The notes below the pieces were generated by a model that was given only the letters and a program-made list of their open reading frames with translations, had not been told where the DNA came from and did not search any database. From the sequence record PP067092.1: a DNA stretch of 50,602 nucleotides; one strand, given 5' to 3'. Below are positions 1 to 50,602 of the stretch, one piece after another. The stretch comes from Pseudomonas phage PAShipCat1. Numbering within the stretch: the stretch's first letter is position 1; every line of letters begins with the position of its first letter. Both the position numbers and the translations under genes were made by a program.

Positions 1-672
1 CGCACGGGATGCCGACCCGCCGCCGGCGCTGCCGCCGGCGGTGCTGGCTGCCGAGTGGTCGCCGGTGCCGCTGGCTGCCGAGTCGTCGCCGGTGCTGCTG
101 GCTGCCGAGTGGTCGCCGGTGTTGCTGGCTGCCGAGTGGTTGCCGGTGTTGCTGGCTGCCGACTGGTAGCCGGTGTTGCTGGCTGCCGAGCGGTTGCCGG
201 TGTTGCTGGCTGCCGACTGGTAGCCGGTGTTGCTGGCTGCCGAGCGGTTGCCGGTGTTGCTGGCTGCCGACTGGTAGCCGGTGTTGCTGGCGGTGTCGCC
301 CACCACCGTCTGCTCAACCGAGCTGTCCAACCGAGCCATGATCCAGTCGATTGCTCGCGAGATCATGGTCGGCATGCTGATTTCCGCTTCCACCACCAGG
401 GTGGCGCTGGCGATCTTGCTGTCATCGTCGTGACGGCTCAGTTGCCCCGAAGCCTTCACGATGGCGAATCGGCTGTCGCCTGGGGCGTAGTAGCCGAAGA
501 CATCAAGGGGGTACTCGCAGGAGTGGAAGCCCGAGGCGCATGCCTCGACTTCGCCATCGTGCTTATAGGTTCCGCCGATCTCGAACTGGTAGCCGCGGCA
601 GGTCAGGTCTTGCTTGAACCCCTTGTAAGCGGTCACGACCTCTTCGGACGCAGCCTTTTTCTTGCTCGCCAT
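1..672 (-). CDS. nonapeptide-repeat protein, 5' part (start codon inside window at 672; reading frame open to window start)
   Basis: ATG at 672-670 (minus) 7 nt after GGAGAA SD. N-terminal ~125 aa domain MASKKKAASEEVVTAYKGFKQDLTCRGYQFEIGGTYKHDGEVEACASGFHSCEYPLDVFGYY... followed from ~330 to 1 by 27-nt tandem repeats encoding SNTG[YNDH][QRH]SAA. No stop before edge. Not in ORF track because the ORF runs off the window edge with no in-window stop. Confidence 0.75.
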   Translation of the reverse strand, partial: MASKKKAASEEVVTAYKGFKQDLTCRGYQFEIGGTYKHDGEVEACASGFHSCEYPLDVFGYYAPGDSRFAIVKASGQLSRHDDDSKIASATLVVEAEISMPTMISRAIDWIMARLDSSVEQTVVGDTASNTGYQSAASNTGNRSAASNTGYQSAASNTGNRSAASNTGYQSAASNTGNHSAASNTGDHSAASSTGDDSAASGTGDHSAASTAGGSAGGGSASRA

Positions 673-774: not shown

Positions 775-924
775 TTAGTCGTCGGAGTACCGTTCTTCCA
801 GCTTCTCGCGCTGGTCCTGCGCCGCGAACTCGATGTCTTCGAGCTGCTTCTGGCGTTCGGCAGGTGCGATGGTGGTGTCGTGGGCCAGTTGGGTAATCGC
901 GGCGATGATTTGCTGCTTGGTCAT
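775..924 (-). CDS. hypothetical small protein (49 aa, MTKQQIIAAITQLAHDTTIAPAERQKQLEDIEFAAQDQREKLEERYSDD)
   Basis: ATG with GAGGAAAGGA SD. GC-rich third positions. Sits between operon neighbours. Below track size cutoff. Confidence 0.35.
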   Translation of the reverse strand: MTKQQIIAAITQLAHDTTIAPAERQKQLEDIEFAAQDQREKLEERYSDD

Positions 925-966: not shown

Positions 967-1176
967 TCAAGTGTTCTCGCAGGCGTAACAAATTCCTGTA
1001 GCCGTCACCCCCAGGCGCCCACACTCGGGGCAGCTCGCCTCGCTGCGCACCTGCTCCTGCGCCTCCTCGTAGCAACCCTCGCAGCGGAATCCGTCGGACG
1101 TCTCGATCACGCGACCGGGCGCGTTGCACCGGTCGCATTCGTGAGTGATTGTCATCGGGTCGACTCCGTACATCAC
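967..1176 (-). CDS. hypothetical zinc-ribbon protein (69 aa, paired CxxC motifs)
   Basis: ORF track. CDRC...CEGC...CPEC...CYAC motifs. 4-nt ATGA overlap with upstream gene. Confidence 0.5.
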   Translation of the reverse strand: MMYGVDPMTITHECDRCNAPGRVIETSDGFRCEGCYEEAQEQVRSEASCPECGRLGVTATGICYACENT

Positions 1177-1596: not shown

Positions 1597-2251
1597 CGTC
1601 TTGCCCTCCAGGGCGTGTTGACTTCTTCGATGCCCCTCTTGCGAAGGGCGTCTGGGAAATCGGTGTTTCTCCCGCGTTCGCCTAACTGGGCTTCTACAAC
1701 CCGCGGGTGGTGCTGTCCTCACCACTGCCGATAGCAGCTCGGACTCGATGTGTTTGGCCTTGGGCTTCCCTCGCAGCGCCTTCAATCGGCATACAGCGCT
1801 GGTCGTCGGGGACGGTGTTTCACTCCACGCTTGACTACAGCCCGGTGGCCTGGTGAGTAGGGCAGGTATGCGTGGGTTGCCGATCCGAACATCGGCTGGG
1901 CTTAGTGCTTCATGGGCTGTTTCCTCCTATTGGTTGTGTTCACCGCAAGCCTTTGCGAGGCCTGTCCGCTGTGCCCAGGAATGCGCCAATTCATGGCCCG
2001 AGCAGGGAGCGTTAGCAGTGCAACCCTCAGCCCGCTTTGCGCTATCTGCTCGATGTTCTGAGCTGAGGGAGCGCGACGCCTGGCGTTGAGTTGGCCGGGA
2101 TTACCCGGCATCAGCAGTCGTGTTTATCCACCGTCGCTCAGTCGCGGTGACCTGCGGCTGTCGGGACTGCGGTGGGGTCTGACTTGTTAAAGAGCGGTCG
2201 GCTCGGTGGCCTGGCGCTGCGTTGTTCTGCGGCGTTGAGATGAAATTTAAG

Positions 2252-2306
2252 TCTGCTGAAATTCATAGTCAAGCCTGCTGAAGAAAATATTTTCAGTTTG
2301 CTGAAA
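2252..2306. promoter_or_regulatory. OL-like operator cluster / leftward early promoter region
   Basis: Three copies of a TGCTGAA-containing motif. Perfect inverted repeats TTTCAG-TTTG-CTGAAA (2291-2306) and CTGAA-N10-TTCAG (2277-2296). Located just downstream of the repressor terminator and upstream of the minus-strand early operon. Confidence 0.5.
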
Positions 2307-2325
2307 TTGACGAGATCGTCAGGCA

Positions 2326-2350
2326 CAAAAAAGCCCGCACTTGGCGGGCC
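2326..2350 (-). terminator. intrinsic terminator after repressor gene
   Basis: On minus strand: GCCCGC-CAAGT-GCGGGC stem-loop followed by TTTTTTG. 19 nt after the cI-like stop. Confidence 0.6.
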
Positions 2351-2368
2351 TGTGTCCGGCTTGTGGTG

Positions 2369-3097
2369 CTATCGGCGCGGGGCTCGGCGGACCGTTGACC
2401 ACCAGAAGACACGTCCGAGCATGGTGATTTGACTGAATTGATCGGATGTCAGTATCTCGTCTGGGTACTCGTCGCTGTTTTCGCTCCTGATGCGGACTGA
2501 GTTCCCGGGCATCGAATAGAGGTACTTGACGCGAAGCATTCCATCCTGATTGAAGGCGTAGATCTCACCGTCGACGATGTGTGTGAAGCTGGTGTCGAAG
2601 CCGATAGCGGCGCCATCGAGGATCAGCCTCTCCATGGATCGCCCACGAACTCGGGCTACTGCGGCACATTCCGGCTCCACGCCTGCTGACCGAAGCGTGT
2701 CCTTTGAGAACCGAAGCTTTCTGTCAGCGATTTCAACGACTTCCGTCATACCGTTTCCTGCGGCAAGCTCCACCTCAGAGTAGTACGGCAGTTCTACTTC
2801 GTCATCCTCAAGCGGCGTGTCTGCATCCCAGGCAGAGACCAAGCCGACAAGTTCGCCTTGGTTGTGGTCGGGACCTACGTCAATGGCGCGCTCTGGTCCA
2901 GACCCAAGCGTTATCCACTCCGCGCGGAAGCCGGTGGCTTTCGCAAGGGCGAAGGCGCTTTCCGCCTTTAGGCTCTTGCTGTCGCCATTAATCCACTGAG
3001 TGACGGCTGAGGGCGCGACGTCGCAAAGTTTTGCGATTTCACTTTTCGTTTTTCCGCTGAGCTGGATGGCTCGCGCGATTCGTTCGTTTCTGTTCAT
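2369..3097 (-). CDS. cI: CI-like prophage repressor (N-terminal HTH, C-terminal S24 LexA-like peptidase domain)
   Basis: HTH segment KTKSEIAKLCDVAPSAVTQWING. S24 catalytic Ser motif GRSME and downstream Lys (LRVKYL). Divergent from cro-like gene. Confidence 0.85.
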   Translation of the reverse strand: MNRNERIARAIQLSGKTKSEIAKLCDVAPSAVTQWINGDSKSLKAESAFALAKATGFRAEWITLGSGPERAIDVGPDHNQGELVGLVSAWDADTPLEDDEVELPYYSEVELAAGNGMTEVVEIADRKLRFSKDTLRSAGVEPECAAVARVRGRSMERLILDGAAIGFDTSFTHIVDGEIYAFNQDGMLRVKYLYSMPGNSVRIRSENSDEYPDEILTSDQFSQITMLGRVFWWSTVRRAPRR

Positions 3098-3105
3098 CCG
3101 ATGAT

Positions 3106-3200
3106 GTTAAGACAGCTTAATTTAAGTGAGTGCAAAACTCGGAAGCCTGTTGCGAACATTATTTCAGTGTGCTGAAATTGGTTCATTGCTACGCGAGGAC
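3106..3200. promoter_or_regulatory. OR-like divergent promoter/operator region between repressor and cro-like gene
   Basis: 108-bp AT-richer spacer containing the same palindrome TTTCAG-TGTG-CTGAAA at 3163-3178. Confidence 0.5.
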
Positions 3201-9434: not shown

Positions 9435-9510
9435 GCCGGTATGGCGCAACAGGGAGCGCTGCTGATTTGTAATCAGAGGGTTGCGGGTTCGACTCCTGCT
9501 GCCGGCACCA
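9435..9510 (+). tRNA. tRNA-Thr (anticodon UGU), phage-encoded, with encoded CCA
   Basis: Manual fold: acceptor GCCGGTA/TGCCGGC (one G-U). U8. D-arm GCGC-AACAGGGA-GCGC with G18G19. Anticodon arm GCTGA-TTTGTAA-TCAGA (U33, TGT, A37). 5-nt variable loop. T-arm GCGGG-TTCGACT-CCTGC (T54 T55 C56). Discriminator A, CCA. Confidence 0.8.
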
Positions 9511-12725: not shown

Positions 12726-14096
12726 ATGACTGACAAACTCGACCTCGCGGTCAATCACGCGATGAGCAGTGCTGTCGCGCGTGCGCGAATGAGCCTGCTG
12801 AACCAGGGCATCGGCCATGACGCCAAGCGGCCGCAGGCATGGTGCGAGTATGGTTTCCCTCAGGAAATCACGTTCAACGACCTGTACACCATGTACCGGC
12901 GGGGCGGTATTGCCCATGGCGCGGTCGAGAAGATCGTCACCACGTGCTGGAAGACAAATCCGCAGGTCATCGAGGGCGACGATCAGGACCGCTCCAAGGA
13001 CGAAACCGAGTGGGAGAGGAAGAACAAGCCGTTGATCGCAGGCGGCAGGTTCTGGCGGGCTGTCTCCGAAGCCGACCGGCGCCGCTTGGTGGGTCGGTAT
13101 TCCGGGTTGCTCCTGCACATCAGGGATAGCCAGCCGTGGGATATGCCTGTCACGGGAAAGGTCAATGGCCTGGCGAAGGTCACCCCGGCCTGGGCTGGGT
13201 GCCTTAAGCCGAAGTCGTTCGACGAAAAGCTAGATAGCGAGACCTACGGGCAGCCCACCATGTGGGAATACACCGAGGCCTCCCAAGCCGGGCGCCCTGG
13301 CCTGGTGCGGGATATCCATCCGGATCGGGTGTTTATCCTCGGCGACTGGACCGGCGATGCAATCGGCTTCCTGGAGCCTGCCTACAACTCCTTCATCAGC
13401 CTTGAGAAGGTCGAGGGAGGCAGTGGCGAATCGTTCCTCAAGAACGCCGCACGTCAGCTCCTGCTGAACTTCGACAAGGAGATTCAGCTCGGCGAGATCG
13501 CCAGCACCTACGGCGTGACGATCGATGCGCTCAACGAACGCTTCAACGAGGCGGCGCGTCAGTTAAACCGCGGCAACGATGTCCTGCTTCCAACCCAGGG
13601 GGCGACCGTCACGCAGATGGTGTCCGCCGTTTCGGACCCCAGCCCAACCTACAACGTCAACCTGCAAACCGCCGCCGCCGGGGTCGACATCCCGACCAAG
13701 ATTCTGGTGGGCATGCAGACCGGCGAGCGGGCGAGCAGTGAGGACCAGAAGTACCACAACGCCAGATGCCAGGCGCGCCGGGTGCAAGAACTGACGTTCG
13801 AGATCAACGACCTGTTCGGGCACCTGATGCGCATCGGCGTGGTCCCTCTGAAGGCCGAGTTCACGGCAATCTGGGATGACCTCACCGTTCCAACCAAGGC
13901 CGAGCGCCTGGCCAACTCCAAGACCATGAGCGAGATCAACAGCGCCGCAATCGGCACTGGCGAGCCGGTATTCACCGCGGAGGAGATCCGCGAAGAGGCT
14001 GGCTACGACCCGCTCGTGGGCGGTGACCCGCTGCCTGATACCGAACCGGAGGATGAAGATGCCGCGCGCACCGATCCTACCGGCGAGCAGCAGTGA
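12726..14096 (+). CDS. portal protein
   Basis: 456 aa. Position between terL and MuF-like gene. Acidic C-terminus. Internal ATG MTDKLDLAV... after the stop of preceding ORF. Confidence 0.7.
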   Translation: MTDKLDLAVNHAMSSAVARARMSLLNQGIGHDAKRPQAWCEYGFPQEITFNDLYTMYRRGGIAHGAVEKIVTTCWKTNPQVIEGDDQDRSKDETEWERKNKPLIAGGRFWRAVSEADRRRLVGRYSGLLLHIRDSQPWDMPVTGKVNGLAKVTPAWAGCLKPKSFDEKLDSETYGQPTMWEYTEASQAGRPGLVRDIHPDRVFILGDWTGDAIGFLEPAYNSFISLEKVEGGSGESFLKNAARQLLLNFDKEIQLGEIASTYGVTIDALNERFNEAARQLNRGNDVLLPTQGATVTQMVSAVSDPSPTYNVNLQTAAAGVDIPTKILVGMQTGERASSEDQKYHNARCQARRVQELTFEINDLFGHLMRIGVVPLKAEFTAIWDDLTVPTKAERLANSKTMSEINSAAIGTGEPVFTAEEIREEAGYDPLVGGDPLPDTEPEDEDAARTDPTGEQQ

Positions 14097-14130
14097 CCCG
14101 ACCGGGGTAGATCGACTGGAAAGGGGCGCA

Positions 14131-14982
14131 ATGCGCGAGTTCGACAGGCGCATGCGGAAAATCCGGGATGGCTATGTCGCTGCCTTGGACCGAATCCCGG
14201 CCCAGCCGGTGGTGAATGAGCAGTACACCTACCGTCTCGACCAGGCCCTTCTCTCCGCGATCTTCGCCGACACCAACCTGATGGTCGACGAGATACTGCA
14301 GGAGGGCGGGGAGCGCGACCTCTGGTTCTTCGAATCCTATGTCGGGGTTGCCTACATCCGCGGTACCGCACAGACGCATGCCAACCTGGCGCAGCAATCG
14401 CCTGCATACCGCGCCGGCCGGGAATCGCTGGATGTCCTGCTTCGATCCGACGCCTACCGCGCGCGGATGGCACTGCTTCGCGCCCGGGAGTTCGAGGAGA
14501 TGAAGGGCTTGTCCGGCCAAGTCAAGGCCGACATGGCGCGCATTCTCGCCGAGGGCATGGGGCGCGGGAAGAATCCCCGCGAAATCGCACGGGACCTGAC
14601 CGCACAGACCGGCATCGAGGCGCGTCGCGGCCATCGCATCGCACGCACCGAAGTCACAACCGCTCTCCGAAGGGCTCGCTGGGACGAGAAAGACGCTGCT
14701 GAGGCCGACTACGGCGTTCAGTCGAAGCTGATGCATATGTCGGCCCTGTCCCCCAGCACCAGGGCAACCCATGCGGCCAGGCACGCCAGGCTCTACACCT
14801 CGGACGAGGTGAGGGACTGGTACAGCCGAGACGGAAACTCGATCAACTGCAAGTGCAGCCAGGTCGAGGTACTGGTCGATGACGAAGGGAATCCGGTTGT
14901 CCCGGCCATCGTCGAGCGCGCGCGCCGCAACTACCAAGTCATGAAAGCCAAAGGGCGCGGGCCCTGGGCGAAAGAGGATTGA
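14131..14982 (+). CDS. head morphogenesis protein (Mu F / SPP1 gp7 family)
   Basis: GAAAGGGG SD + ATG MREFDRRMRKIRDGY. Conserved C-terminal region ...HAARHARLYTSDEVRDWYSRDGNSINCKCSQVEVLVDDEGNP... Confidence 0.8.
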   Translation: MREFDRRMRKIRDGYVAALDRIPAQPVVNEQYTYRLDQALLSAIFADTNLMVDEILQEGGERDLWFFESYVGVAYIRGTAQTHANLAQQSPAYRAGRESLDVLLRSDAYRARMALLRAREFEEMKGLSGQVKADMARILAEGMGRGKNPREIARDLTAQTGIEARRGHRIARTEVTTALRRARWDEKDAAEADYGVQSKLMHMSALSPSTRATHAARHARLYTSDEVRDWYSRDGNSINCKCSQVEVLVDDEGNPVVPAIVERARRNYQVMKAKGRGPWAKED

Positions 14983-14985
14983 GCC

Positions 14986-16263
14986 ATGCCCATGCAGGTC
15001 AACATCACCACCCAGGTCAACAGCGCCAGCATTCGGCGTGAGACACACAACGGGCGCGAACACCTGGTTCTGCCGAGCTACACCCTGCCGGCCGGCGTGA
15101 TCATGAACGGTGGTCTCTACACCGCCGAGCAGATCGACAAGCACTACCCAGGCCTGGAGGGAACGCTGGCGCCGCTCGGGCACCCGATGGTCGACGGGAA
15201 GTTCGTGTCTGCGTTCTCGCCTGAGGGGATCAACGCCGCCCACGTCGGCGCCTGGAACCGCAACGTGAAGAAGTCCGGCAACCGGGTCTACATGGAGAAG
15301 TGGGTCGACGTCGAGTTTGCCAAGTCCACGGAGGGCGGCCGTGAACTGTTGCAGCGCGTCGAAGCGCTGGAGAAGGGGGAGGACGTCCCCCCGATCCATA
15401 CCAGCGTTGCCGCATTCCTCAATCGCATCGAGCCGAACGAAAGCCAGCGTGCCCAGGGCGCGGAGTGGGTCGCCGACATCCAGAGCATGGATCACGACGC
15501 GATCCTGCTGCACGAAGTAGGGGCGGCCACTCCTGAGCAGGGCGTCGGCCTGATGGTAAACGCCGACCAGGCTGTCCCGCTTCAGCCGAATTCCGGCGCT
15601 CTGGTTGGCGAGTCCTACCGGGAGCGGGAGCAGCGTCTCGATCGCGCCGCAAAGGAGCGATTCGCCTCCGGGCCCGACCAGTACGCATGGGTTGCCGACT
15701 TCACCGATTCTCAGGCTGTGATCAGCCGCAATGGCGGTGTGACCGAGGTGTACGGCTACAAGGTCGAGGCAGGGAAGATCGTCTTCGACGAATCCGGCCA
15801 GCCCGTTGTCAGGCAAGAGTCCTGGGTCGCCATGGTGGCCAACAGCATCAAGAACATTTTCACCCATCGTCAGGCTCGGCCTGATCAACCTGAGAAGGAG
15901 GGCGACATGCCCCTGACCCCCGAAGAAAAGGCCGAAATCGTGAAGGAAATCGGCACCAACACCTCCAGCGCCATCAAGGAACTGGCGGACACCATCATCA
16001 AGCCTCTGGCCGACAAGGTCGACGGCCTGGTCGCCAATCACAAGGCGCTGGCCGACACGCTGACCGCCAACCAGCGCGCCGAGGAAGACAGCATGCGCGA
16101 AGCGGTCAAGGCCAAGTTTGGCGAGGTCATCGCCAACAGCCTGGCCGGCGACGCGCTCAAGGAACTGTTCAAGCAGTGCGGCGAATCCGCTCCACTGGGC
16201 GCCAATGCTGCCACCGACAAAGGCGGCCTCACCGCCGATATCGCCAACCTGCCGAAGGAGTAA
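14986..16263 (+). CDS. putative scaffolding/prohead core protein (DUF2213-like)
   Basis: Synteny MuF - this - small structural - capsid. Acidic/alpha-helical C-terminal half. Confidence 0.5.
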   Translation: MPMQVNITTQVNSASIRRETHNGREHLVLPSYTLPAGVIMNGGLYTAEQIDKHYPGLEGTLAPLGHPMVDGKFVSAFSPEGINAAHVGAWNRNVKKSGNRVYMEKWVDVEFAKSTEGGRELLQRVEALEKGEDVPPIHTSVAAFLNRIEPNESQRAQGAEWVADIQSMDHDAILLHEVGAATPEQGVGLMVNADQAVPLQPNSGALVGESYREREQRLDRAAKERFASGPDQYAWVADFTDSQAVISRNGGVTEVYGYKVEAGKIVFDESGQPVVRQESWVAMVANSIKNIFTHRQARPDQPEKEGDMPLTPEEKAEIVKEIGTNTSSAIKELADTIIKPLADKVDGLVANHKALADTLTANQRAEEDSMREAVKAKFGEVIANSLAGDALKELFKQCGESAPLGANAATDKGGLTADIANLPKE

Positions 16264-16266
16264 GCC

Positions 16267-16716
16267 ATGTCTCGCTATCGTCGCGTGAACATCGACGGCA
16301 AGTCGCTGTTCAAGACCGAAACCCGCAAGACCGCCGCGGCACTCCTGCCCGGCACGTTCGCCGTGATCAATGGCAGCGACCTGTTCGCCCAGGCAAGCGC
16401 CAGCGTTGGCCGCCTCTACGTCATCGACTGCGCTCACCACGAAGGACTCAACATCCGCGATGCGGTTCCCGCCGGCCATTCGGCCGTGGGCAACTACGTC
16501 GAAGAGGGTCGCGAACTCGCCGTGCTGTGCCCGGCCGGCACCTACAAGAAAGACACGCCGATCAAACTCGGCACCAGCGGCCAGGGTGCCATCGCGTCGA
16601 GCGATACCGACACGGTCCTCGGGTACAGCCAGGACGATGCAGTCATCGCCTCCGGCGAAACCGACTTCATCCGCATCCGCTTCCGTGTCGGCAGTGTCGC
16701 CGCCCCGGCGCCCTAA
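16267..16716 (+). CDS. small head structural protein (DUF2190-like position)
   Basis: ORF track. Between scaffold and capsid. Confidence 0.45.
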   Translation: MSRYRRVNIDGKSLFKTETRKTAAALLPGTFAVINGSDLFAQASASVGRLYVIDCAHHEGLNIRDAVPAGHSAVGNYVEEGRELAVLCPAGTYKKDTPIKLGTSGQGAIASSDTDTVLGYSQDDAVIASGETDFIRIRFRVGSVAAPAP

Positions 16717-16731
16717 TAGGAGTACGGACAC

Positions 16732-17826
16732 ATGTTCCTCACCCAGCAAGCAACCGCCGCCCATCCTCGCCTGATGGGCCACTACCAGGAGTTGCAGGCC
16801 AATCGCAACATCTGGAACAACCAGAACGCCGCTATGATCGCCCGCCACCGCGGCGCCATGACCCCCGAAATGCTGGCCTGCAACGCGCTCGCCGGCCTGG
16901 GTCGTGAGTTCTGGGCCGAGGTCGACGCCCAGATCATCCAGTACCGCAACCAGGAAACCGGCATGGAGATCGTCAACGATCTCCTGCAGGTGCAGACCGT
17001 GCTTCCGATCGGCAAGACCGCCAAGCTCTACAACGTGGTCGGCGACATCGCCGATGATGTGTCGGTGAGCATCGACGGCCAGGCCCCGTACTCCTTCGAT
17101 CACACCGAGTACAACTCCGATGGCGACCCCATTCCGGTGTTCACCGCCGGCTACGGTGTCAACTGGCGCCATGCCGCCGGCATGAACACCGTCGGCATCG
17201 ACCTGGTTCTGGACTCGCAGGCTGCGAAGCTCCGCAAGTTCAACAAGCGGATCGTTGCCTACACCCTGGACGGCGCCACCAACATCCAGGTCGAGAACTA
17301 CCCGGCTCAGGGTCTGCGCAATCACCGCAACACCATCAAGGTCAACCTGGGCTCCGGCGCCGGCGGCGCGAACATCGACCTGACCACCGCCACGCCGCAG
17401 CAGATCATCGACTTCTTCACCAAAGGCGCATTCGGCCAAGCTGCGCGTGCCAACAAGGTGGACGCCTACGATGTTCTCTGGGTTTCCCCGGAAATCAACG
17501 CCAACCTGTCCCAGCCCTACATGATCACCATGGGCGGCGGTGCCAACGCGGTGGTGGCCGGCACCGTGCTCGATGCGGTCATGCGCTTCATCCCGGCGCG
17601 CGCGGTTCGCCAGACCTTCGCCCTGTCGGGCAACGAGTTCCTGGGCTATCAGCGCCGCCGCGACGTGGTCACCCCGCTGGTCGGCATGGCTACCGGTGTT
17701 ATCCCGCTGCCGCGCCCGCTGCCGCAGGTCAACTACAACTTCCAGATCATGAGCGCCATGGGCATCCAGGTGAAGAAGGACGACGAAGGTCTGTCCGGCG
17801 TGATCTACGGCGCCAACCTGGCGTAA
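16732..17826 (+). CDS. major capsid protein
   Basis: 364 aa. Highest-expression-like codon usage. Strong SD GGAGTACGGACACATG. Synteny. Confidence 0.65.
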   Translation: MFLTQQATAAHPRLMGHYQELQANRNIWNNQNAAMIARHRGAMTPEMLACNALAGLGREFWAEVDAQIIQYRNQETGMEIVNDLLQVQTVLPIGKTAKLYNVVGDIADDVSVSIDGQAPYSFDHTEYNSDGDPIPVFTAGYGVNWRHAAGMNTVGIDLVLDSQAAKLRKFNKRIVAYTLDGATNIQVENYPAQGLRNHRNTIKVNLGSGAGGANIDLTTATPQQIIDFFTKGAFGQAARANKVDAYDVLWVSPEINANLSQPYMITMGGGANAVVAGTVLDAVMRFIPARAVRQTFALSGNEFLGYQRRRDVVTPLVGMATGVIPLPRPLPQVNYNFQIMSAMGIQVKKDDEGLSGVIYGANLA

Positions 17827-17836
17827 GGAGAACGAC

Positions 17837-18229
17837 ATGCCCAAATACGAGGTGATCAAGCCCTGGAACGGCGTTTCCAAGGGTCAGGTGCTGGAGCTCG
17901 AATCACTTGCCGCTGCGCTCCTGCCGAACGTGCGCGAGGTTGGCGCACTCAGGAGCGGAAGCCTGACCTTGGACGTTTCGGCCCAGGTCGACGAAGCGGC
18001 CAGGCAAGCTCTCGCCGAAGCGCGTGTATCCGTCGATGCCATGATCGACGAAGCCAAGGCCCAGGCCGGTACCCTGACCCCGGCCATTCCGGACGGTAGC
18101 GAGCGCCGCGAGCTGATCAAAGCGCGCCTGAAGGAGCTGAAGATCGAGTTCGATGGCCGCCAGGGCGAGGAAGCGCTTGCCGCCCTGCTGCCGGAGGGCG
18201 AACTGGTGAAGCTGTTCCCGGCCAAGTGA
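17837..18229 (+). CDS. hypothetical head-associated protein
   Basis: ORF track. AGGAGAACGAC SD. Confidence 0.45.
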   Translation: MPKYEVIKPWNGVSKGQVLELESLAAALLPNVREVGALRSGSLTLDVSAQVDEAARQALAEARVSVDAMIDEAKAQAGTLTPAIPDGSERRELIKARLKELKIEFDGRQGEEALAALLPEGELVKLFPAK

Positions 18230-49062: not shown

Positions 49063-49500
49063 TTAGGCGGTTGGTTTGACTGGTCGAACTGAAACAACAA
49101 CCCAAGCATCATTTCCAATAACAAATGCACAGGAAGCTTCTTCGTCGGGGCCGTCGTAGAGGTTGCCGTCCGAACCTTCTTGCCCGAAATCGATCTTACC
49201 GTTCATATCGGCGATTCCATCCCAAAGCGGGCCAGTAGTCAGCGCATGCGATGCCCATTCCGGGGCGCTCTTCCAGTCGATATTTACGCTGTTCTCCAGC
49301 GGAAGCTCTGGACTAGGCATCCAGTATTTGACCTTGTAACATTGGCTTTCGCCTTTACGTTGGCACCATGCGCCTAACCATTCGCCTTCTCCCTCGTAAG
49401 TTGCTCCTTCTATTTCATATCGCCCACATACCGGGATCATGATCAGGCATTTGTCGCCAACGTTTGGTAGATGATCACTACACTTGATCCACTCACTCAT
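49063..49500 (-). CDS. DUF551-like phage protein
   Basis: N-terminal MSEWIKCSDHLP matches the DUF551 hallmark (WI..SD.LP). GGTGAGGTGA SD. Confidence 0.6.
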   Translation of the reverse strand: MSEWIKCSDHLPNVGDKCLIMIPVCGRYEIEGATYEGEGEWLGAWCQRKGESQCYKVKYWMPSPELPLENSVNIDWKSAPEWASHALTTGPLWDGIADMNGKIDFGQEGSDGNLYDGPDEEASCAFVIGNDAWVVVSVRPVKPTA

Positions 49501-49682: not shown

Positions 49683-50602
49683 TCACTCGTCGAATTCGAC
49701 GAACTCGCCCTCGGCATTCAACTGGTACCAGGTGTCCGGCTCTACGCCGTTCTCCCCGACCTTGCTGGCGCGGATATGGATGAGGCGCCCCTCGTCGTCG
49801 CGATGGCAGAGAACGATGGCGCTGCCGGCAGACGCGCGAGCGCGGCCTTCGATACCCAGGGATGCGGCGACGGATTCCTTGCCGCTGACCTCGGCTGCCG
49901 AGTAGTCGCCGGTGTTCGACGCTGCCGAGCGGTAGCCGGTGTTGCTGGCTGCCGAGTAGTCGCCGGTGTTGCTGGCTGCCGACTGGTAGCCGGTGTTGCT
50001 GGCTGCCGAGCGGTTGCCGGTGTTGCTGGCTGCCGAGCGGTTGCCGGTGTTGCTGGCTGCCGAGTAGTCGCCGGTGTTGCTGGCTGCCGACTGGTAGCCG
50101 GTGTTGCTGGCTGCCGAGTGGTAGCCGGTGTTGCTGGCGGCCGAGGGGTAGCCGGAGTTGCTGGCGGCCGAGGGGTGGCCGGGGTTGCTGGCGGCCGAGG
50201 GGGGGCCGGGGGTGCTGGCGGGGTTTGCTGGCTGCCTAGCCGGCGTTGCTGGCTGCCTGGTAGCCGGTGTTGCTGGCCGCCTGTAGCCGGTGTTGCTGGC
50301 TGCCGACTGGTAGCCGGTGTTGCTGGCTGCCGAGTAGTCGCCGGTGTTGCTGGCTGCCGAGCGGTTGCCGGTGTTGCTGGCTGCCGAGCGGTTGCCGGTG
50401 TTGCTGGCTGCCGACTGGTAGCCGGTGTTGCTGGCTGCCGACTGGTAGCCGGTGTTGCTGGCTGCCGACTGGTAGCCGGTGTTGCTGGCTGCCGAGTAGT
50501 CGCCGGTGTTGCTGGCTGCCGAGCGGTTGCCGGTGTTGCTGGCTGCCGAGCGGTTGCCGGTGTTGCTGGCTGCCGACGGGTAGCCGGGGTTGCTGGCGTC
50601 TG
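49683..50602 (-). CDS. nonapeptide-repeat protein, 3' part (stop codon TGA at 49685-49683; reading frame open to window end)
   Basis: ~26 tandem 27-nt repeats (49900-50600) encoding SNTG[YND][QRYH]SAA. Degenerate Pro-rich stretch 50150-50285 stays open. Then a ~65-aa C-terminal domain ...EVSGKESVAASLGIEGRARASAGSAIVLCHRDDEGRLIHIRASKVGENGVEPDTWYQLNAEGEFVEFDE*. Confidence 0.7.
   Translation of the reverse strand, partial: DASNPGYPSAASNTGNRSAASNTGNRSAASNTGDYSAASNTGYQSAASNTGYQSAASNTGYQSAASNTGNRSAASNTGNRSAASNTGDYSAASNTGYQSAASNTGYRRPATPATRQPATPARQPANPASTPGPPSAASNPGHPSAASNSGYPSAASNTGYHSAASNTGYQSAASNTGDYSAASNTGNRSAASNTGNRSAASNTGYQSAASNTGDYSAASNTGYRSAASNTGDYSAAEVSGKESVAASLGIEGRARASAGSAIVLCHRDDEGRLIHIRASKVGENGVEPDTWYQLNAEGEFVEFDE

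What the first reader, a model, noticed from the sequence alone, without database searches (positions are those of the whole stretch)
1..672. Window is a permuted complete phage genome broken inside the repeat array; one gene spans the junction, with a 1-nt phase mismatch
The same repeat array, in the same orientation, sits at positions 1-340 and 49900-50602. The 5' piece (ATG at 672, open to position 1) and the 3' piece (open from 50602 to the stop at 49685-49683) are two halves of one gene. Gene order across the junction is continuous: the early-left operon runs from the OL region near 2300 leftwards to 775, into the repeat gene, and on to 49.5-37.9 kb. Joining the ends directly puts the two halves out of phase by one nucleotide. 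Codons end exactly at position 1 on one side. On the other side they begin at positions congruent to 2 mod 3. So repeats are missing or collapsed at the contig break, and the true gene is longer than the 1592 nt visible.
Basis: seen in the sequence. Interest (0 to 1): 0.7.

Follow-up and report, generated by a model that had tools for sequence, protein, structure and literature searches.

The report
Phage contig broken inside repeat gene
The window is a complete Pseudomonas aeruginosa temperate phage genome whose assembly stopped inside a 27-base tandem repeat. One ordinary, already catalogued phage gene is therefore cut in two, and the reading-frame "mismatch" at the junction comes from error-filled contig ends, not from biology.

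Summary
A 27-nt tandem array lies at 33-291 and 49893-50597. On the minus strand it encodes SNTGxxSAA nonapeptides.

- **5' piece (672..1):** a DUF7666 N-domain followed by repeats.
- **3' piece (50600..49683):** repeats followed by a 69-aa C-domain.
- **One gene:** both pieces match the two ends of PHROG 4433. In close relatives (phage Flu_PA14_4; P. aeruginosa chromosome CM129969) the same flanks surround a single intact gene with 27 or 12 units.
- **Complete phage:** the window carries a full lambdoid gene set and shows no host DNA.

The phase mismatch exists (two surplus bases, 50602-50601) but means nothing. Three stretches drift towards G in the direction of extension (1-99, 50136-50229, 50568-50602). 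Another stretch, 50230-50297, has units with deletions. None of these variant units occurs among 1,843 natural units.

The true copy number is therefore unknown. I count 26 clean units. "Longer than 1592 nt" is not shown.

At least 15 GenBank phages break at this same gene. Some annotators labelled the broken array as attL/attR or as CRISPR spacers.

The gene's function is unknown. It sits in the early-left operon and is predicted to form a beta-solenoid with two variable residues per unit. Overall this is an ordinary assembly artefact in a known gene family.

The parts
289..672 (-). 5' part of the split gene: start codon at 672-670 and the DUF7666 N-terminal domain (128 aa, ending in ...VVGDTA)
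   Evidence: Pfam PF24703, 121 bits against a cut-off of 27. PHROG 4433 positions 2-224. One residue differs from Flu_PA14_4 XMN01041.1.
100..288 (-). Seven clean 27-nt units anchored to the N-domain (YQ NR YQ NR YQ NH DH)
   Evidence: Unit table shows 0 mismatches at the invariant positions.
1..99 (-). Degraded contig end. Units drift by A>G on the coding strand (SSTGDD, SGTGDH, STAGGSAGG, GSASRA).
   Evidence: Mismatches per unit rise 1, 2, 8 towards position 1. No such unit occurs among 1,843 natural units.
49683..49892 (-). 3' part of the split gene: the conserved 69-aa C-terminal domain and the stop codon (49685-49683)
   Evidence: PHROG 4433 positions 241-312. Identical to the C-terminus of Flu_PA14_4 XMN01041.1.
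49893..50135 (-). Nine clean units anchored to the C-domain (YH YQ DY NR NR YQ DY YR DY in coding order)
   Evidence: The YH unit next to the degraded zone may already carry one C>G error on the + strand.
50136..50297 (-). Internal corrupt stretch. G count per unit on the + strand rises 11>14>16>18 (50136-50216). Pieces of 40, 21 and 47 nt follow and add up to 4 x 27.
   Evidence: The translation loses and regains the SNTG frame. No counterpart exists in natural copies.
50298..50567 (-). Ten clean units with no anchor on either side (NR NR DY YQ YQ YQ NR NR DY YQ)
   Evidence: Their place and copy number in the real array cannot be fixed from the window.
50568..50602 (-). Degraded contig end (T>G on the + strand). 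It includes the two out-of-phase bases 50601-50602.
775..924 (-). Upstream neighbour in the early-left operon (49 aa, PHROG 37521)
   Evidence: The same 49-aa gene precedes the intact DUF7666 gene in L019/L020.
49063..49500 (-). Downstream neighbour (145 aa, PHROG 31114, weak DUF551)
   Evidence: In ten P. aeruginosa prophage loci this identical protein starts 183 nt after the stop of the repeat gene, the same spacing as in the window.
2244..2309 (-). OL/PL region: three operator-like repeats and a promoter-like site that would drive the operon holding the split gene

Best explanation
The window is a complete genome of a lambdoid temperate Pseudomonas aeruginosa phage of the JBD88b/DO4/JBD44/P27 group. 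It was assembled as a circle that the assembler could not close.

**Why the assembly broke (inferred).** The break falls inside a coding tandem array of 27-nt units, at least 26 of them (700 nt or more). That is probably longer than the reads or k-mers could span. Extension from both sides ran into the array and ended in low-quality read tails.
- The three degraded zones all drift towards G in the direction of extension. I read this as the signature of two-colour Illumina chemistry.
- The literal junction and its -1 phase therefore carry no biological meaning.
- The copy number in the window is unreliable.

**What the gene is (shown).** Biologically there is one gene with three parts:
- a DUF7666 N-domain with invariant Cys/Cys/His/Cys;
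- n copies of the nonapeptide SNTG-x-x-SAA;
- a conserved 69-aa C-domain.

It is transcribed from PL early in infection.

**How the protein most likely works (inferred, low confidence).**
- It is cytoplasmic, since it has no signal peptide.
- The array folds into a beta-solenoid rod with about two units per turn.
- Only the two x residues of each unit vary. They are mostly D/N/Y followed by Y/R/Q.
- Rod length changes in 9-aa steps, by unit slippage or recombination.
- Its position matches the slot held by ral, sieB and gene 17 in lambda and P22. This suggests an accessory host-takeover, exclusion or anti-defence role.
For: **Array and frames.**

**One gene.**
- PHROG 4433 matches the N piece at profile positions 2-224 and the C piece at 241-312.
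- Flu_PA14_4 CDS0044 (440 aa) has the same N-domain, 27 clean units and an identical C-domain.
- The chromosomal prophage L020 aligns with window 1928->33 at 97.1% and with 50224->46500 at 99.2%, around one 305-aa gene.
- The joined window aligns with Flu_PA14_4 across the junction.

**Complete phage.**
- Terminase, portal, tape measure, tail, O-antigen acetylase and integrase are present.
- cI, operators and a promoter-like site are present.
- The whole window matches only Pseudomonas phages.

**Errors at the ends.**
- Unit tables show G-ward drift at three sites and indel-bearing units at 50230-50297.
- In 1,843 units from 120 natural proteins the SNTG..SAA frame holds in all but one unit (one SNAG). 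None of the window's odd units occurs there.

**The same break recurs elsewhere.**
- PSA04, P27, BR320a and Albius were read directly and break in this gene.
- At least 11 further phages have the gene at a record end.
- Draft genomes L013 and L018 have N-gaps inside the array.

**Protein.**
- AF2 models the units as regular 7-residue strands. The N- and C-domains reach pLDDT 80-90.
- In ES18 the homologue gp53 lies between the N-like gene and cIII.
Against: - No reads are available. Read length, platform and coverage are all inferred.
- The compensating indels at 50190-50297 (40 + 21 + 47 = 108 = 4 x 27) are not typical Illumina errors. They point to a consensus or polishing artefact that I cannot reconstruct.
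- The NH and DH units at 100-153 are rare in nature (8 of 1,843). They are not G-ward changes, so they may be real.
- For function there is no experimental or homology-based evidence.
  - PADLOC gave no hit.
  - PDB sequence and Foldseek searches gave nothing significant.
  - The repeat region has only pLDDT 50-58 in the MSA-based model.
Confidence: 0.92

Rival explanations
1. The gene is really disrupted in this phage. A true frameshift or rearrangement inside the array makes it a pseudogene, or a phase-variable gene switched off, and the garbled stretches are real sequence.
For: - The literal join is out of phase, and 50230-50297 is out of the repeat frame.
- Many database members of the family have frame-shifted arrays, for example P0131, P0135-P0137 and P0144.
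- Emek gp53 is annotated 'with frameshift'.
Against: - The odd stretches sit exactly at the contig ends and at one internal point.
- They drift directionally towards G rather than showing single indels.
- The unit is 27 nt, so slippage by whole units keeps the frame.
- Intact genes flanked by 97-99% identical DNA exist in relatives.
- Frame-shifted database entries are just as well explained by the same assembly problem. Draft loci L013 and L018 have N-gaps in the array.
Confidence: 0.04
2. The two blocks belong to two paralogous repeat genes, or to a prophage with host DNA beyond both ends, so the window is not a closed genome.
For: Nothing beyond the bare fact that the contig is linear and its ends do not overlap.
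Against: - One piece has only the N-domain and the other only the C-domain.
- The window has a single complete set of phage modules, with its integrase in the interior.
- No part lacks phage matches.
- In prophages the two flanks are adjacent around one gene.
Confidence: 0.02
3. The array lies at the physical ends of the virion DNA, as a direct terminal repeat, and the contig ends are the true genome termini.
For: The same repeat in the same orientation at both ends can look like a terminal redundancy.
Against: - The two end blocks differ in unit order and are not copies of each other.
- In Flu_PA14_4, P7869, YA3, phi2 and other records the gene is intact and lies inside the record, in the early-left operon far from the terminase genes.
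- Termini inside an early gene would be without precedent in this phage group. This last point rests on my own knowledge.
Confidence: 0.02

Closest known systems
Pseudomonas phage Flu_PA14_4 CDS0044 (XMN01041.1, 440 aa), and P. aeruginosa prophage 'DUF7666 domain-containing proteins' such as P0001 (350 aa)
   Same: - The N-domain differs by one residue and the C-domain is identical.
- The nonapeptide unit and its 27-nt DNA unit are the same.
- The neighbours and the position in the early-left operon are the same.
   Different: - These genes are intact, with 11-28 clean units.
- The window copy is split by the contig break and holds about 35 units, of which roughly 9 are corrupt.
Salmonella phage ES18 gp53 ('function unknown'), with homologues in SEN22, Emek, Acinetobacter fLi-Aba02, Ralstonia Hyacinthe and Vibrio phages
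   Same: - They share the three-part architecture: DUF7666 N-domain, 9-aa repeats, C-domain.
- They lie promoter-proximal in the PL operon of temperate phages.
   Different: - Identity is 36-60%.
- The unit consensus shifts (TNTGxxSAA, SATGxxGAA, ASGxxSxLA and others).
- Annotators gave unrelated names, such as c-type lectin, ADP-ribosyltransferase and FliK.
GenBank records PSA04 (MZ089728), P27 (PP740689), BR320a (MK511048) and Ralstonia phage Albius (MT740726)
   Same: The same artefact: the record starts and ends inside this gene's array.
   Different: - PSA04 and BR320a are honestly labelled 'partial genome', with partial CDS at both ends.
- P27 labels two repeat units as attL and attR.
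- Albius is labelled complete and leaves the gene unannotated.
Beta-solenoid repeat proteins: RTX beta-roll (nonapeptide GGxGxDxUx), curli CsgA, the Ca-dependent antifreeze protein MpAFP, and autotransporter passengers
   Same: - The unit is also 9 residues, and the model also builds stacked short strands.
   Different: - There is no sequence-motif match and no Pfam hit to any of these families.
- The unit has no Ca-binding GG/D motif.
- The protein has no signal peptide, whereas all of these are secreted.
- Model confidence in the array is only moderate.

Membership tests
Pfam PF24703 (DUF7666) | The N-terminal domain scores above the Pfam gathering threshold | tested here: met
   121.4 bits against a cut-off of 27, residues 13-105 of the 5' piece.
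PHROG 4433 (phage protein, unknown function) | Matches both the N-terminal and the C-terminal parts of the 312-position profile | tested here: met
   N piece: profile positions 2-224, E 1.6e-97. C piece: positions 241-312, E 7.5e-32.
DUF7666 / nonapeptide-repeat / C-domain architecture (ES18 gp53-like) | All three parts lie in one uninterrupted ORF | tested here: inconclusive
   All three parts are present, but the contig break splits them and a corrupt stretch interrupts the array. Relatives with the same flanks have one ORF.
Lambdoid temperate phage, complete genome | An immunity region with cI and operators, an integrase, replication, lysis, packaging, head and tail modules, and no host DNA | tested here: met
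RTX beta-roll repeats | The nonapeptide consensus GGxGxDxUx with Ca-binding Gly/Asp, and secretion by a type I system | tested here: not met
   The unit is SNTGxxSAA, with no GG and no conserved Asp. Pfam gives no hit. Only a fold-level resemblance exists.
Curli CsgA, or Hep_Hag/YadA head repeats | A Pfam repeat profile match and a secreted or surface location | tested here: not met
CRISPR array (as annotated for the Vibrio phage 1.185.O homologue) | Direct repeats separated by unique spacers, non-coding | tested here: not met
   The units abut with no spacers and lie inside an ORF with a conserved peptide frame.
attL/attR pair (as annotated for P27) | A core sequence shared with a bacterial attB, located next to the integrase at prophage ends | tested here: not met
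   The annotated 38-nt 'att' sites are array units. The integrase lies about 13 kb away in the window.
Known anti-phage defence or anti-defence families | A match to a PADLOC model | tested here: not met
   No PADLOC family at E <= 0.1 for three family members. PADLOC holds defence models only, so an anti-defence role remains untested.

The most novel reading that the evidence does not exclude
The array could be a modular recognition rod that works through a repeat-variable diresidue code, as TALE, PUF or PPR repeats do, but built on a beta-solenoid.

- Each 9-aa unit is invariant except for two adjacent residues.
- Those residues come from a small alphabet: DY, NR, YQ and YR make up 87% of 1,843 units.
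- The order of units differs in almost every prophage and looks random.

The protein might therefore read a linear polymer, such as nucleic acid, polysaccharide or a repetitive host protein. Different phages would then carry different specificities.

My data do not exclude this. No data support it beyond the pattern of variation.
Probability: 0.03. Interest if true: 0.8.

Novelty: already known. Interest (0 to 1): 0.15.

Why it matters
**Practical value**
- The window can be treated as a complete phage genome with one unresolved gap.
- The gene at the junction should be annotated as a single DUF7666 repeat protein with unknown copy number.
- Positions 1-99, 50136-50297 and 50568-50602 should not be trusted.
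- This gene is a recurrent assembly breaker in temperate phages of several genera, and it has led to wrong annotations:
  - attL/attR;
  - CRISPR spacers;
  - "frameshift";
  - "partial genome".

**Biological value**
- The family is very large: about 4,200 clusters at 50% identity.
- It is expressed early and is uncharacterised.
- Its length varies and each unit carries a variable diresidue, so it may deserve an experiment.
- This window adds nothing new to what intact copies already show.

Tried and rejected
- **Closing the circle by overlap.**
  - The two ends share no unique overlap.
  - The unanchored block (NR NR DY YQ YQ YQ NR NR DY YQ) overlaps neither anchored block.
- **Known fold or function for the N- and C-domains.**
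  - A PDB profile search gave nothing.
  - Foldseek against PDB on both models gave nothing below E 0.9.
  - PADLOC gave nothing.
  - NCBIfam gave only a sub-threshold match of the repeats plus C-domain to E. coli YdhT, 54 bits against a cut-off of 300, plus spurious collagen-like adhesin hits.
- **Literature.** No paper holds "DUF7666". "ES18 gp53" returned only two unrelated papers.
- **A two-unit structural period in the order of diresidues.** Identity at lags 1-7 does not differ from shuffled arrays.
- **Diversity-generating retroelement.** I rejected this from the sequence. The invariant Asn codon AAC never varies, and the variable positions are not adenine-specific.
- **Single-sequence AF2.** It gave an unusable N-domain with pLDDT about 30. 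A 25-sequence alignment improved the N- and C-domains but not the array.

Full report
**1. The observation**

Tandem Repeats Finder reports one 27-nt unit in the same orientation at 33-291 (9.6 copies) and 49893-50597 (26.1 copies). On the minus strand the unit encodes the nonapeptide SNTG-x-x-SAA.

The ORF that starts at ATG 672 runs open to position 1, exactly 224 codons. It encodes a 128-aa unique N-terminal part followed by repeats.

On the other side, the frame that ends at the stop 49685-49683 is open back to 50600. It encodes repeats followed by a unique 69-aa C-terminus.

A literal join leaves bases 50602 and 50601 surplus.

**2. One gene, not two**

- The 5' piece matches Pfam DUF7666 at 121 bits against a cut-off of 27.
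- PHROG 4433, a 312-position profile, matches the 5' piece at positions 2-224 and the last 72 aa of the 3' piece at positions 241-312.
- Phage Flu_PA14_4 (PQ287279) has a 440-aa CDS in the same place. Its N-domain differs by one residue, it has 27 clean units, and its C-domain is identical.
- The joined window aligns with that phage across the junction.
- The downstream neighbour (145 aa, 49063-49500) is found unchanged in many P. aeruginosa prophages.
  - It always starts 183 nt after the stop of a DUF7666 repeat gene, as in the window.
  - In L019 and L020 the upstream 68-aa and 49-aa genes are also the window's.
- L020, a 6.79-Mb chromosome, aligns with window 1928->33 at 97.1% and with 50224->46500 at 99.2%. 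A single 305-aa gene with 12 units lies between.

**3. A complete phage with no host DNA**

- Both halves of the window match only Pseudomonas phages. They are collinear with JBD88b/DO4 (99.2%), P27, JBD44 and PSA04.
- PHROG scans identify terminase large subunit, portal, a virion protein, tape measure, a J-like tail protein, a tail fibre, O-antigen acetylase and integrase.
- cI is at 2369-3097.
- Operator-like repeats lie at 2249-2305, with another copy at 3165-3176.
- A minus-strand promoter-like site lies at 2272..2244.
- The early-left reading of the operon is therefore sound.

**4. The ends and one internal stretch are not real sequence**

A unit-by-unit table gives the following picture.

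| Region | Content |
|---|---|
| 288-100 | seven clean units anchored to the N-domain |
| 99-1 | 1, 2, then 8 mismatches per unit, nearly all A>G on the coding strand |
| 49893-50135 | nine clean units anchored to the C-domain |
| 50136-50216 | + strand G count per unit rises 11, 14, 16, 18 |
| 50190-50297 | pieces of 40, 21 and 47 nt that sum to 4 x 27 |
| 50298-50567 | ten clean units with no anchor |
| 50568-50602 | T>G changes again |

All three drifts go towards G in the direction in which the contig was being extended.

In 120 natural full-length homologues (1,843 units) the frame SNTG..SAA holds in all but one unit (one SNAG), and only the two x residues vary. The following never occur there:
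- SSTGDD, SGTGDH, STAGGSAGG;
- SNPGYP, SNPGHP, SNSGYP;
- the out-of-frame stretch.

I infer low-quality read tails, with G-bias as in two-colour Illumina chemistry. This rests on my own knowledge and was not tested. I also infer a consensus artefact at the internal join.

The phase mismatch is therefore meaningless and the copy number is unknown. The 26 clean units give a lower bound of about 1.3 kb. Intact relatives have 11-28 units. "Longer than 1592 nt" is not supported.

**5. A recurrent artefact**

A tblastn search of 50,697 phage records finds the gene family in 63 records. In at least 15 distinct phages the gene lies at a record end.

Four of these I read directly:
- PSA04, labelled "partial genome";
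- P27, where array units are annotated as attL/attR;
- BR320a;
- Ralstonia phage Albius.

Other traces of the same problem:
- Draft bacterial assemblies L013 and L018 carry N-gaps in the array.
- One Vibrio phage has the array annotated as CRISPR spacers.
- Emek has "gp53 with frameshift".

**6. What the gene is**

The N-domain alone retrieves about 4,200 clusters at 50% identity. In 75 of the best 150 representatives the sequence after the N-domain shows a 9-, 18- or 27-residue period, and 33 short complete members also end in the conserved C-domain. Invariant or nearly invariant residues in the N-domain include K, C, C, G, F, H and C, which suggests a metal site. That last point is inference.

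| AF2 run | N-domain pLDDT | C-domain pLDDT | Array pLDDT |
|---|---|---|---|
| 25-sequence alignment | 85-90 | 80-90 | 50-58 |
| single sequence | about 30 | below 50 in part | about 72 |

Both runs model the array as regular 7-residue strands.

- Foldseek and PDB sequence searches find nothing significant for the N- and C-domains.
- PADLOC gives no hit.
- NCBIfam gives only a sub-threshold match to YdhT.
- The order of diresidue units differs in 117 of 120 proteins and is indistinguishable from shuffled.
- In ES18 the homologue gp53 follows the N-like antiterminator and precedes cIII and kil. The position is likewise PL-proximal in Ralstonia and Acinetobacter phages.
- From my own knowledge, this is the slot that holds ral, sieB and gene 17 in lambda and P22. 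I therefore guess an accessory host-takeover or exclusion role.

**7. Verdict**

The finding is real as an observation and mostly right as an interpretation. It describes an ordinary assembly break in a known, already catalogued gene family. Its value is practical: close the gap, distrust the ends, and annotate one gene. The uncharacterised repeat protein is mildly interesting in itself, but intact copies elsewhere are better material for studying it.

Noticed in passing
window 9435-9510 (+): A tRNA-Thr (anticodon TGT) gene lies in the late-regulation/lysis region of the phage.
   Followed up: no
window 2238-2309 and 3154-3180: Three operator-like copies (..TTTCAGnnTGCTGAAA..) lie 22-23 nt apart downstream of cI, and a fourth lies upstream of cI. 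A terminator-like hairpin follows cI at 2351..2331 on the minus strand.
   Followed up: partly
L002 12-49 and L003 1287-1324 (GenBank PP740689, phage P27): The features annotated attL and attR in this 'complete genome' are units of the same coding repeat array. That record too is a circle opened inside the gene.
   Followed up: yes
L022 2162-2818 (P. aeruginosa CP103790): This prophage copy has 16 units and the C-domain but no DUF7666 N-domain upstream. It may be a recombinant or truncated variant.
   Followed up: partly
L013 and L018 (draft P. aeruginosa assemblies): Runs of 96 and 81 N lie inside the same array, and the N- and C-parts fall in different frames. These are scaffold gaps at the same gene.
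   Followed up: partly
window 967-1176 (-): A 69-aa early-left ORF (PHROG 18649) has four CxxC-like pairs (CDRC, CEGC, CPEC, CYAC). It looks like a small zinc-ribbon protein.
   Followed up: no
P0001 residues 193-347: The repeats plus C-domain give a sub-threshold NCBIfam match to the C-terminal half of E. coli YdhT (E 1.5e-14, 54 bits against a cut-off of 300). This may be a chromosomal relative of the C-domain.
   Followed up: no
window 14077-17880 (-): A 1267-aa open frame lies antisense to the head genes. It is almost certainly a by-product of high G+C and not a gene.
   Followed up: no
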